Source of the DNA: Sandaracinaceae bacterium
GTDB taxonomy: Bacteria; Myxococcota_A; Polyangia; Polyangiales; Houyiibacteriaceae
Reading direction: 5' to 3'
Length of the DNA: 64,000 nucleotides
NCBI GenBank assembly: GCA_020633055.1
Contig: JACKEJ010000004.1
Location: 641,914-705,913 of the forward strand
The notes beneath the pieces were generated by a model. It was not told the DNA's origin, made no database searches, and worked only from the letters and a program-made list of their open reading frames with translations. Positions 53,887-55,573 of this stretch are shown here, piece by piece. The stretch's first letter is position 1, and every line of letters starts with the position of its first letter. The position numbers were made by a program, and so were the translations under genes.

Positions 53887-54450
53887 TCAGAAGATGCAGA
53901 GGAACTCTGCGGGGTCGTTCTGTATGGCGGCGAGCGACCTCGGGAGCAGCTCCGCAAGCGAGTCCGCGACGTACTCGATGCGGTCCGGGTCATGCACGTA
54001 CCGGATGATCTGGCCGGGCACTCCGCTCCCGAGCGGCTGATGGTCGACGAGCAGCACGGCGTGGTCGCTCTCTGCCGCGAACGGGAGCCAGCCGGGCGAG
54101 AACCAACCCACGCCGACGCGGGGGTCCCGGGGAGCCGTGCATGCTGGCGCCCGATCGTACTGTGGCGCACGGTGCTTGAAGCAGTCTCGCTCGTCGAGCG
54201 CCTGCTCCACAGAGAGGAGCGCGTAGCCACAGAGGTACTTTCCGTCGTGGAACACGGGCGCGTCGTCCGAGCCGTTCGCGACGTCCCAGAGCGCGCGCAG
54301 CTGCGGGTGAAGGGTGGTGCCCATCACCTTCTCCACCTTCGCGATGGCCTTCGCGCCAACCTTGCGGCGTAGGCGGAGCGTGTGCGGGCTCTCGGCACCG
54401 TGGTCGCGATAGATCACCTTCAGAGCGCTCAGGTAGTCGGTGACGTTCAT
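53887..54450 (-). CDS. SMI1/KNR4 (SUKH-1) family protein, putative immunity protein
   Basis: 187 aa. N-terminal IAKVEKVMGTTLHPQLRALWDVANGSDD matches the SUKH-1 signature (LP..l..ll...NG). Cytoplasmic, no signal peptide. Confidence 0.65.
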   Translation of the reverse strand: MNVTDYLSALKVIYRDHGAESPHTLRLRRKVGAKAIAKVEKVMGTTLHPQLRALWDVANGSDDAPVFHDGKYLCGYALLSVEQALDERDCFKHRAPQYDRAPACTAPRDPRVGVGWFSPGWLPFAAESDHAVLLVDHQPLGSGVPGQIIRYVHDPDRIEYVADSLAELLPRSLAAIQNDPAEFLCIF

Positions 54451-54565
54451 GGCAGCTCGGCGTGCAGTCTACCGAGCACGAAGTCTCTCGGTACAGCGAG
54501 AGGTGCTGGCCTTCGACGCCGACCCGAACGAACGGGCGCGCTGGTCGACGAACGGCCCACCGCTC

Positions 54566-55573
54566 CTACCAAGGCAGCAGCCGCAAGAAGCCATGCGCGA
54601 GGATCACGGGGTAGAGCATGAGGTTCCGAGCGAGCGCGTACATCCACGACCAACGCGGCGGCGGTCCCCCAGCCACCACCGCCGCAGCCAGGCGTTCGAG
54701 GTGCGTCGGACCGAAGGGGCCGTCTTGAATGCGCCGCACGAGCGGCAGCGGGAGGGCTGCGGCACCATGCAGCGCGCCGAGCCACCCACCCACGATCGCA
54801 GCGTGTGAGTCCGTGTCCCCGCCGGCCCGAATGCAGGCGTCGATGCCGCTCATGGGGTCCTCCCCGAAGCGCAGGAAGACGTAGGTGCATAGGCCGACGG
54901 TGTGGAAGATGAAGCCGGTGGTGCCCAGCTGCGCTGCCGCGTCGTCCAGGGGCTCTCGTGCGCTGCGAACGGCGGTGTCGATGGCGTCGAGGATCGCAGG
55001 GTCCCGGACCACCTCGCGCGCAGCCGAGACCAACGCCGCGCGGGTCCGGGCCTCGGGAGATGCGCACAGCGCGCTCAGCTCGCTGACGTAGAGCGCGCCT
55101 TCGACCGCGCGCTCGTCCGTGTGCGTGACCGTCGCCAGCGCTCGCCCCAGGCGGCGTCGCCGGGCCGCGTCGTCCACGAGCATCACGCCCAGCGCGCCCG
55201 CACGCATCGCGGCGCCGTTCCCTGCCGAGCGTACCCCGGGCCTGCGCAGACCGATCGCCATGCGCAGGCAGGCGCGCAGCGTCGCGCCCCCGATGCCAAA
55301 GGGCAGCCGCGCGAACCACCCGACCATGGACCGCCGAAACCGCGAGACGGTGGCCGCGTCTTCACCGCCAGACGCGAGGAGCGCCTGCGCGAGCAGCACC
55401 ATCTGTTCGGTGTCGTCGGAGACGACGCCCGTCCGCCCGAAGAGGCGGTGTCGGTCCGGACCCGGATAGCGGCGGCGGATGCGACGGGGCGAGAGCCCCT
55501 CGAACGGGAGCCCGAGGGCGTCACCGAGGGCCACGCCGAAGAGCGCTCCGAGCACACGGTCGTGTCTGTCCAT
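54566..55573 (-). CDS. ADP-ribosylglycohydrolase family protein (DraG/Tri1-like)
   Basis: Canonical N-terminal GALFGVALGDALGLPFE and C-terminal DTDSHAAIVGGWLGALHG metal-binding motifs. Start taken at Met MDRHDRV. Confidence 0.85.
   Translation of the reverse strand: MDRHDRVLGALFGVALGDALGLPFEGLSPRRIRRRYPGPDRHRLFGRTGVVSDDTEQMVLLAQALLASGGEDAATVSRFRRSMVGWFARLPFGIGGATLRACLRMAIGLRRPGVRSAGNGAAMRAGALGVMLVDDAARRRRLGRALATVTHTDERAVEGALYVSELSALCASPEARTRAALVSAAREVVRDPAILDAIDTAVRSAREPLDDAAAQLGTTGFIFHTVGLCTYVFLRFGEDPMSGIDACIRAGGDTDSHAAIVGGWLGALHGAAALPLPLVRRIQDGPFGPTHLERLAAAVVAGGPPPRWSWMYALARNLMLYPVILAHGFLRLLPW

What the first reader, a model, noticed from the sequence alone, without database searches (positions are those of the whole stretch)
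53887..55573. Adjacent orphan immunity-like genes: ADP-ribosylglycohydrolase (Tri1/DraG-like) and SUKH-1/SMI1
SUKH-1 proteins are immunity proteins of polymorphic toxin systems. ARH-domain proteins such as Tri1 neutralise ADP-ribosyltransferase effectors by reversing the modification. These are established for the families, not for these genes. Neither protein has a signal peptide, and no cognate toxin gene is visible nearby. Together they look like a small island of orphan immunity genes protecting against incoming ART toxins and nuclease/deaminase toxins. DraG-type regulatory de-ADP-ribosylation is the alternative explanation.
Basis: inference. Interest (0 to 1): 0.6.

Follow-up and report, generated by a model that had tools for sequence, protein, structure and literature searches.

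The report
Adjacent ARH hydrolase and SUKH genes
Two neighbouring genes in a Sandaracinaceae (myxobacterial) chromosome, an ADP-ribosyl-hydrolase-fold enzyme and a SUKH-domain protein, are real but appear to be unlinked, and only the SUKH gene has contextual support as a spare anti-toxin "immunity" gene.

Summary
Window 53887-54450(-) encodes a 187-aa SMI1_KNR4/SUKH-1 protein (Pfam E 5e-14; predicted fold matches Knr4, YobK and Syd). Window 54566-55573(-) encodes a 335-aa ADP_ribosyl_GH protein (Pfam E 3e-57; pLDDT 96; metal-binding motifs intact).

The ARH belongs to a widespread, partner-less orthologue group (>50% identity across 80 species in at least eight phyla). None of 83 orthologue loci carries this SUKH subfamily, and no neighbour family recurs; no ART family was among those listed. 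The protein fails the NCBIfam Tri1 and DraG equivalog cut-offs. It lacks Tri1's N-terminal toxin-plugging extension and has an invariant Gly where DraG has catalytic Asp97. The window contains no ART, DraT, nitrogenase, T6SS, RHS or CDI gene.

The SUKH protein has real contextual support as an orphan immunity gene. A 53%-identical homologue lies in the immunity array downstream of an RHS-AHH nuclease toxin, and two distant relatives sit next to Ank or Imm33 genes.

The ARH-SUKH adjacency was seen only in this genome. GC3 is not an outlier, and there is no tRNA or mobile-element signature. This is not a two-gene immunity island. Both genes are ordinary new members of known families, so interest is low.

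The parts
53887..54450 (-). SUKH-1 / SMI1_KNR4 gene, 187 aa, cytoplasmic. Probable orphan immunity-type toxin-binding protein.
   Evidence: Pfam PF09346 E 5e-14. PADLOC PDC-M40A E 1e-14. Hallmark W121-L-P-F-A125 is invariant in the family alignment. The fold matches Knr4, YobK and Syd. Homologue P0008 (53% identity) lies in an RHS-AHH toxin locus.
54451..54565 (-). 115-bp spacer between the ARH stop codon and the SUKH start codon.
   Evidence: Sequence read. No terminator-like or sigma-70-like site between the genes. Co-transcription is possible but not shown.
54566..55573 (-). ADP-ribosylglycohydrolase (ARH/DraG-like fold) gene, 335 aa. Member of a stand-alone, multi-phylum orthologue group.
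   Evidence: Pfam PF03747 E 3e-57. E25, S52-D53-D54 and G251-G252-D253-x-D255 are invariant in 116 sequences, and T55 and T254 are at least 90% conserved. Model pLDDT 96.4. Closest solved structure is MJ1187. 80 orthologue loci without a conserved neighbour.

Best explanation
These are two functionally independent cytoplasmic genes that happen to lie next to each other in a non-syntenic stretch of a Sandaracinaceae chromosome.

(1) The ARH is a catalytically competent, Mg2+/Mn2+-dependent ADP-ribosyl-hydrolase-fold enzyme. It belongs to a widely distributed, partner-less orthologue group. It most likely removes ADP-ribose from an endogenous substrate, either a mono-ADP-ribosylated protein or an ADP-ribose metabolite, as a housekeeping or regulatory activity. 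It is not a dedicated toxin-immunity protein, and its substrate is unknown.

(2) The SUKH protein is a small binding protein of the SMI1/KNR4 superfamily. It most likely acts as an orphan immunity protein that neutralises an incoming nuclease-type polymorphic toxin by tight binding.

Shown: the folds, the conserved motifs, the phyletic spread, the lack of conserved linkage, and the toxin-locus context of one SUKH homologue. Inferred: the enzymatic activity, the substrates, and the immunity role of this particular SUKH copy.
For: ARH: the metal-ligand and catalytic motifs are invariant. The model is high-confidence and nearest to MJ1187, DraG, TtARH and ARH3; Tri1 ranks only 31st. More than 2740 homologues were found, and the top 120 are 50-73% identical. 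Orthologues occur in Myxococcota, Planctomycetota, Acidobacteriota, Armatimonadota, Melainabacteria, Elusimicrobia and Auribacterota, including cultured Labilithrix, Tundrisphaera, Singulisphaera and Tautonia. The 147 flanking ORFs of 83 loci hit 192 different Pfam families, none in more than 4 ORFs, and no ART appears among the 25 families listed, which were all that the tool shows. All-against-all clustering found no shared neighbour apart from paralogous Ser/Thr kinases at variable positions. None of these loci contains the SUKH family.

SUKH: homologue P0008 overlaps by 4 bp the gene upstream of it, in an array RHS-repeat/AHH nuclease -> Ank -> 401 aa -> SUKH -> resolvase. Distant relatives lie beside Ank (L104) and DUF1266+Imm33 (L111). 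The subfamily includes proteins with 2-3 tandem SUKH stretches. SUKH orphan immunity proteins have been shown experimentally to protect Bacteroidales against a WHH nuclease effector (PMC12247911).

Independence: the closest relative, L163 (Hsp70-like protein 85% identical), keeps SLT...ERG2...DUF2760-Hsp70. It has no SUKH, ARH or any of the next seven window genes in the 10 kb that follow. L164 behaves likewise.
Against: No biochemical data exist for either protein. The ARH orthologue group lacks the DraG Asp97 equivalent (invariant Gly93), so its chemistry or substrate may differ from the Arg-ADPr hydrolases. A stand-alone ARH could still give broad protection against ART toxins, because Tri1's hydrolase activity partly reverses a non-cognate toxin (PMC11606950). 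Most SUKH homologue contexts (6 of 7 close ones, 8 of 10 distant ones) show no toxin or immunity neighbour, so the immunity role of this copy rests on family-level inference. The two genes share a strand with only 115 bp and no terminator between them, so co-expression cannot be excluded. Only about 64 kb of the genome was visible.
Confidence: 0.55

Rival explanations
1. One reading: both genes are orphan immunity genes forming a small island. The ARH would reverse ADP-ribosylation by incoming ART toxins, and the SUKH protein would bind nuclease or deaminase toxins.
For: Both families include proven immunity proteins: Tri1 and Imm-ARG (PMC3482391; PMC8120803), and SUKH I2. The genes are adjacent and on the same strand. 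Tri1's hydrolase activity works on non-cognate toxins. A protein with an Imm26 hit lies about 8 kb away. The region downstream of the Hsp70-like gene is non-syntenic in relatives.
Against: The ARH fails the Tri1 equivalog cut-off and lacks the N-terminal extension. Its orthologue group shows no recurring ART neighbour in 83 loci, whereas Imm-ARG strictly associates with ARTs. The ARH-SUKH adjacency is absent from all 83 ARH loci and all 7 SUKH loci. GC3 is not deviant. There is no tRNA, integrase or flanking repeat.
Confidence: 0.1
2. The SUKH protein is not an immunity protein. It would be a Knr4/Syd-like protein-binding or regulatory factor with an endogenous partner, and the ARH would be as in the best explanation.
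For: The best structural matches are the yeast Knr4 core (TM 0.71), with YobK much weaker. Six of 7 close homologue contexts and 8 of 10 distant ones have ordinary neighbours such as kinases, GGDEF-EAL proteins and methyltransferases. The window contains no toxin gene.
Against: There is no conserved neighbour or operon partner either, which is the pattern expected of orphan immunity genes. One homologue is embedded in an RHS-AHH immunity array. Tandem multi-SUKH relatives exist. The protein matches the PADLOC candidate-defence model PDC-M40A.
Confidence: 0.25
3. DraG-type regulation: the ARH reactivates a DraT-modified nitrogenase Fe protein.
For: The protein is remotely similar to DraG: TIGR02662 E 1e-18 and 3g9d E 3e-14.
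Against: The score is 67 bits against a 337-bit cut-off. No DraT or nif genes are in the window. DraG Asp97 aligns to an invariant Gly. Among the neighbour families listed for the orthologue loci, none was a nif gene.
Confidence: 0.01
4. ARH and SUKH form a two-gene functional module, for example a candidate phage-defence system of the PADLOC PDC-M40 type.
For: The SUKH protein matches PDC-M40A (E 1e-14). The genes share a strand with a short spacer and no terminator. Some ARH orthologues lie near defence genes such as AbiEii and GmrSD.
Against: The ARH matches no PADLOC model. The pairing occurs nowhere else. Neither viral contigs nor plasmids gave a hit.
Confidence: 0.03

Closest known systems
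Tri1 (Serratia proteamaculans), the ARH-type bifunctional immunity protein of the T6SS ART toxin Tre1 (PDB 6DRE/6DRH); Imm-ARG / Imm-ADP-RGHD of Zhang et al. 2012
   Same: It has the same ARH/DraG-like all-alpha fold and the same metal-binding Asp/Thr motifs. It is cytoplasmic.
   Different: There is no N-terminal toxin-occluding extension: the alignment starts at Tri1 model position 66 and residue 70 of the 6dre chain. There is no adjacent ART toxin here, and none recurs among the listed neighbour families of 83 orthologue loci. The score is 30 bits against a 490-bit cut-off. Tri1 ranks only 31st among structural matches.
DraG (Rhodospirillum rubrum / Azospirillum brasilense), dinitrogenase reductase-activating glycohydrolase
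   Same: The fold, the E-x...DD...DxD(S/T) metal site and the monomer size are shared.
   Different: It fails the equivalog cut-off (67 against 337 bits). Catalytic Asp97 is replaced by invariant Gly93. There is no draT or nif context. It carries an extra conserved C-terminal segment.
MJ1187 (PDB 1T5J) and Thermus thermophilus ARH-related protein (PDB 2CWC), structural-genomics ARHs listed without an assigned substrate
   Same: These are the closest matches by sequence and structure: profile E 2e-31, TM 0.79/0.88. They are deposited as single proteins, a 'hypothetical protein' and an 'ADP-ribosylglycohydrolase-related protein', not as toxin/immunity pairs. The T. thermophilus protein also has Gly at the DraG Asp97 position.
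   Different: Identity is only 24-28%. The window protein's orthologue group has its own conserved C-terminal motif (DGPFGPTHL...RNLxLYPVVLAHGFxRL). MJ1187 keeps an Asp at the Asp97 position.
SUKH-1 (SMI1/KNR4) immunity proteins of polymorphic toxin systems, e.g. B. subtilis YobK (PDB 2PRV) and Bacteroidales I2 orphan immunity proteins in rAID arrays
   Same: It has the same superfamily fold and the WxPF/A motif. It is a single-domain cytoplasmic protein with no adjacent toxin, i.e. an orphan. A homologue lies in an RHS-AHH immunity array.
   Different: It is not within a recombinase-associated array or any recognisable immunity cluster. It is structurally nearer to the larger Knr4 core than to YobK. 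No cognate toxin is known.

Membership tests
ADP_ribosyl_GH (ARH/DraG-like) superfamily | Pfam PF03747 match above the gathering score, and an all-alpha ARH fold | tested here: met
   195 bits against a 26.2-bit cut-off. Model pLDDT 96.4, TM 0.79/0.88 to 1T5J.
ADP_ribosyl_GH (ARH/DraG-like) superfamily | Binuclear metal-site and catalytic residues (Glu in helix 1; S/T-D-D-T; D-x-D-S/T) | tested here: met
   E25, S52, D53, D54, D253 and D255 are invariant, and T55 and T254 are at least 90% conserved, in 116 sequences. The motifs align to the corresponding motifs of MJ1187, TtARH and DraG.
Tri1 / Imm-ARG enzymatic immunity proteins | NCBIfam NF041672 equivalog score at or above the cut-off | tested here: not met
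   30.1 bits against a 490-bit cut-off.
Tri1 / Imm-ARG enzymatic immunity proteins | N-terminal extension that inserts into the toxin active site (Tri1 residues 27-33; PMC11606950) | tested here: not met
   The protein starts at the ARH domain. It aligns from model position 66 and residue 70 of the 6dre chain, and orthologues start at the same point.
Tri1 / Imm-ARG enzymatic immunity proteins | Genetic linkage to an R-S-E clade ART toxin ('strictly associates', PMC3482391) | tested here: not met
   No ART in the 64-kb window. 147 ORFs flanking 83 orthologues hit 192 families, none in more than 4 ORFs, and no ART appears among the 25 families listed. A single-locus ART hit would not have been displayed.
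Tri1 / Imm-ARG enzymatic immunity proteins | Hydrolysis of Arg-linked ADP-ribose and protection against ART toxins | not testable with these tools
   Needs enzyme assays and toxin co-expression.
DraG (ADP-ribosyl-[dinitrogen reductase] hydrolase) | TIGR02662 equivalog score at or above the cut-off | tested here: not met
   67.3 bits against a 337-bit cut-off.
DraG (ADP-ribosyl-[dinitrogen reductase] hydrolase) | Catalytic Asp97 (E28-D60-D97 triad; PMC8120803) | tested here: not met
   In an ungapped alignment, DraG 'PVDVG' (the 2woe D97N variant reads 'PVNVG') aligns to 'PFGIG'. G93 is invariant in 116 sequences.
DraG (ADP-ribosyl-[dinitrogen reductase] hydrolase) | draT and nitrogenase genomic context | tested here: not met
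   None in the window. The rest of the genome was not visible.
SUKH-1 / SMI1_KNR4 superfamily | Pfam PF09346 match above the gathering score, and an alpha+beta SUKH fold | tested here: met
   53.4 bits against a 25.4-bit cut-off. Foldseek matches Knr4 at E 3e-10 and TM 0.71, plus BF1740, YobK and Syd.
Polymorphic-toxin immunity protein (cognate) | Located immediately downstream of a toxin gene with a C-terminal toxin domain | tested here: not met
   The upstream gene is the ARH, and the window has no toxin domain. The feature is met for homologue P0008 in L011, which lies in an RHS + AHH locus.
Orphan immunity gene | Homologous to toxin-linked immunity genes but lacking a cognate toxin; variable genomic context | tested here: met
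   53% identical to the RHS-AHH-linked P0008. All 7 homologue neighbourhoods differ. Whether it actually protects was not testable.
PADLOC candidate system PDC-M40 | All components of the candidate system present | tested here: inconclusive
   Only PDC-M40A matched (E 1.3e-14). None of the five neighbouring proteins scanned with it matched any other PDC-M40 model. No literature on the system was found.

The most novel reading that the evidence does not exclude
The ARH represents an uncharacterised, multi-phylum clade of partner-less ARH enzymes. The clade has an invariant Gly at the DraG Asp97 position and a clade-specific conserved C-terminal helical segment. It might act as a broad-spectrum 'innate' de-ADP-ribosylation defence against incoming ART toxins, or it might hydrolyse a substrate not yet associated with the ARH fold.
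Probability: 0.15. Interest if true: 0.5.

Novelty: new member of a known kind. Interest (0 to 1): 0.2.

Why it matters
It matters little for this locus: both genes are ordinary members of well-known superfamilies, and their adjacency appears to be incidental. Two modest points remain.

First, the ARH belongs to a large, conserved orthologue group with no characterised member. It is present in Myxococcota, Planctomycetota, Acidobacteriota, Armatimonadota, Melainabacteria and other phyla. Finding its substrate would annotate thousands of genes, and it would bear on the old question of what endogenous ADP-ribosylation does in myxobacteria.

Second, the SUKH subfamily offers a concrete toxin candidate for testing orphan-immunity function outside Bacteroidales: the AHH nuclease tip of the RHS protein in L011.

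Tried and rejected
- Promoter and terminator scan of 53600-56000: nothing between the genes.
- tRNA scan of the window: none.
- Repeat search of 53000-57000: only short matches of chance type for GC-rich DNA, and no flanking direct or inverted repeats.
- blastn of the pair against plasmids: no match.
- SUKH profile against viral contigs: no relative.
- Neighbour clustering of the ARH loci produced a 13-locus cluster. It turned out to be Ser/Thr protein kinases at varying distance and orientation, so I rejected it as chance co-occurrence of a paralogue-rich family.
- The 399-aa ORF called downstream of SUKH in L001-L004 looks like an Arg-rich wrong-frame artefact and was ignored.
- The first greedy gene caller lost the ARH gene in 36 loci. 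I redid the calling with the ARH gene pre-seeded.
- Literature: 'PDC-M40' gave no paper. Ting et al. 2018 could not be opened under the PMC id I tried, so statements about Tri1 rest on PMC8120803, PMC11606950 and PMC3482391.
- GC3 as evidence of recent transfer: SUKH 0.867 and ARH 0.857 against a window mean of 0.898 +/- 0.044, not outliers.
- I considered the longer ARH start (GTG at 55702, 378 aa) and rejected it, because the orthologues align from the ATG at 55573.
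Full report
**Source and setting.** The window is 71% G+C. Positions 42011-63837 are 99.85% identical to contig JAGQJD010000011.1 of a Sandaracinaceae bacterium MAG (GCA_020430805.1). A Pfam sweep of the GC3-supported ORFs across the window shows ordinary chromosomal content. It found an ECF sigma factor, GGDEF proteins, response regulators, DapF, a T2SSE ATPase, an SLT transglycosylase, an LPG-synthase-like membrane protein, an ERG2-like protein, a VapBC-like pair, a DUF2760 + Hsp70-like pair, a glycosyltransferase, a CAP-domain protein and LuxR-type regulators. 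It found no ADP-ribosyltransferase, DraT, nitrogenase, T6SS, RHS or CDI gene.

**Check of the observation.** Both genes are real and lie at the stated coordinates.
- The 187-aa ORF 53887-54450(-) matches SMI1_KNR4 (PF09346) at E 5e-14, above the gathering score. It carries the family's invariant W-L-P-F-A motif.
- Its AlphaFold model (pLDDT 89.6) superposes on the Knr4 core (TM 0.71). It also matches B. fragilis BF1740, B. subtilis YobK and Syd.
- The 335-aa ORF 54566-55573(-) matches ADP_ribosyl_GH (PF03747) at E 3e-57. Its model has pLDDT 96.4.
- The ARH model is closest to MJ1187 (TM 0.79/0.88), followed by DraG, the T. thermophilus ARH and ARH3.
- The two genes share the minus strand and are 115 bp apart. 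No terminator-like or sigma-70-like site lies between them.

**The ARH.**
- The catalytic and metal-binding residues are conserved. E25, S52, D53, D54, D253 and D255 are invariant in a 116-sequence alignment, and T55 and T254 are at least 90% conserved. An active hydrolase is therefore likely.
- It is neither DraG nor Tri1 by NCBI's equivalog models: 67 bits against a 337-bit cut-off, and 30 bits against a 490-bit cut-off.
- It aligns to Tri1 only from model position 66 and residue 70 of the 6dre chain. It therefore lacks the N-terminal segment whose helix (residues 27-33) plugs the Tre1 active site (PMC11606950; PMC8120803).
- DraG's Asp97 sits in the motif 'PVDVG'; the D97N crystal variant 2woe reads 'PVNVG'. 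In an ungapped alignment this motif falls on 'PFGIG', whose Gly93 is invariant in the orthologue group. The T. thermophilus protein also has Gly at this position, while MJ1187 has Asp.
- The orthologue group also shares a conserved C-terminal segment beyond the Pfam domain (DGPFGPTHL...RNLxLYPVVLAHGFxRL). The model predicts three helices there.

**Distribution and context of the ARH.**
- The protein search returned more than 2740 homologues, and the best 120 are 50-73% identical.
- A scan of one genome per GTDB species returned 80 orthologue loci. They come from Myxococcota, Planctomycetota, Acidobacteriota, Armatimonadota, Melainabacteria/Obscuribacterales, Elusimicrobia, Auribacterota and others. 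Cultured members include Labilithrix luteola, Tundrisphaera, Singulisphaera and Tautonia.
- All-against-all clustering of flanking ORFs found no shared neighbour. The one exception was paralogous Ser/Thr kinases at variable positions in 13 loci.
- A Pfam scan of the 147 ORFs immediately flanking 83 orthologues hit 192 different families, none in more than four ORFs. No ART appears among the 25 families the tool listed.
- An HMM of the SUKH subfamily found no copy in any of these loci.
- Zhang et al. describe Imm-ARG as strictly associated with R-S-E ART toxins (PMC3482391). This orthologue group does not show that linkage.

**The SUKH protein.**
- The word-indexed search found 13 relatives. 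The exhaustive profile search found 38 representative clusters at E<=1e-30 and 704 at E<=1e-10, including proteins with two or three tandem SUKH stretches.
- Seven distinct neighbourhoods of close homologues all differ, and none contains an ARH.
- One neighbourhood is informative. In L011 (GCA_054033295.1) the 53%-identical homologue lies in the array RHS repeats + RHS core + AHH nuclease toxin tip -> ankyrin-repeat protein -> 401-aa acidic protein -> SUKH (4-bp overlap with the 401-aa gene) -> resolvase. A CBASS operon follows.
- Among ten more distant relatives from metagenomes, one follows an ankyrin-repeat gene and one follows a DUF1266+Imm33 gene. The other eight have ordinary neighbours.
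- SUKH orphan immunity proteins have been shown experimentally to protect Bacteroidales from a WHH nuclease effector by tight binding (PMC12247911).
- The protein also matches the PADLOC candidate-defence model PDC-M40A, but none of the neighbouring proteins scanned matched any other PDC-M40 model.

**Is it an island?**
- In the closest available relative (L163; Hsp70-like protein 85% identical), synteny runs SLT...LPG-synthase...ERG2...DUF2760-Hsp70 and then stops. SUKH, ARH and the next seven window genes are all absent from the following 10 kb. L164 shows the same break.
- The pair therefore lies in a larger non-syntenic stretch, not in a discrete two-gene insertion.
- GC3 of SUKH (0.867) and ARH (0.857) is within one standard deviation of the window mean (0.898 +/- 0.044).
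- There is no tRNA, integrase or meaningful flanking repeat.
- Neither the plasmid collection nor the viral collection contains the pair or the SUKH family.

**Conclusion.** Treating SUKH as an orphan immunity-type gene is reasonable, with a probability of roughly one half. The ARH is better described as a member of a widespread, stand-alone, uncharacterised ARH orthologue group than as a Tri1-like immunity gene or a DraG. The ARH-SUKH adjacency is incidental. What remains open is the ARH's substrate, and whether a partner-less ARH can give generic protection against ART toxins. Tri1's hydrolase activity partly reverses a non-cognate toxin, so that possibility is not excluded. Nothing here is categorically new, and interest is low.

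Noticed in passing
window 63448-64000 (-), running off the window end: This is the C-terminal part of a 377-aa protein that carries a recorded Imm26 (PF15428) hit in the near-identical MAG contig. The 183-aa fragment visible in the window scores only 18.2 bits (E 0.003, below the cut-off). It is a possible further immunity-family gene about 8 kb from SUKH.
   Followed up: partly
window 50706-51098 (-) and 51098-51352 (-): A VapBC-like toxin-antitoxin pair: a PIN-domain protein (weak hit, 21 bits) plus an 84-aa upstream partner. It is absent from relative L163, which has three unrelated genes at this position.
   Followed up: partly
window 51433-52014 (+) and 52011-53837 (+): DUF2760 and an Hsp70-like ATPase overlap by 4 bp. 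The Hsp70-like protein has thousands of homologues at about 60% identity, including in Betaproteobacteria (Alicycliphilus, Diaphorobacter). This is a conserved pair of unknown function and forms the last syntenic block before the SUKH gene.
   Followed up: partly
window 25894-30978 (-) and 30938-33097 (-): A 1694-aa DUF3686 + DUF7902 + AAA ATPase lies directly downstream of, and overlaps by about 40 bp in the stop-to-stop ORFs, a 719-aa SPFH/Band-7 protein. These two genes have the highest GC3 in the window (0.96-0.97).
   Followed up: no
L011:3-7652 (GCA_054033295.1): The RHS-AHH nuclease toxin tip, Ank protein, 401-aa acidic protein with repeated 'LPF' motifs, and SUKH are followed by a resolvase. 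A CBASS operon (Cap15 + CD-NTase) sits on the opposite strand. Interbacterial-toxin and anti-phage modules are thus side by side.
   Followed up: partly
L006:6878-7208 and L006:430-6664; L007:2714-5921: The TARA orthologue locus has a degenerate second ARH fragment just upstream of the intact ARH, and beyond that AbiEii and N6-methyltransferase genes. Another orthologue locus has GmrSD and DUF4427 upstream. These look like occasional defence-island neighbourhoods, with no consistent pattern.
   Followed up: no
window 57019-57084 vs L165:15009-15074: Of the 32 differences between the window and the near-identical MAG contig, 28 cluster in one 66-bp patch inside the DUF6263-like gene. The MAG version there is A-rich and atypical in composition, so it is probably an assembly artefact in one of the two sequences.
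   Followed up: partly
window 55717-56343 (+): This 208-aa ORF is transcribed divergently from the ARH, with a 143-bp intergenic region. It has no Pfam match, a hydrophobic N-terminal segment and Gly/Ala-rich repeats. It may be a small envelope protein, and it shows no homologue in relatives L163 or L164.
   Followed up: no
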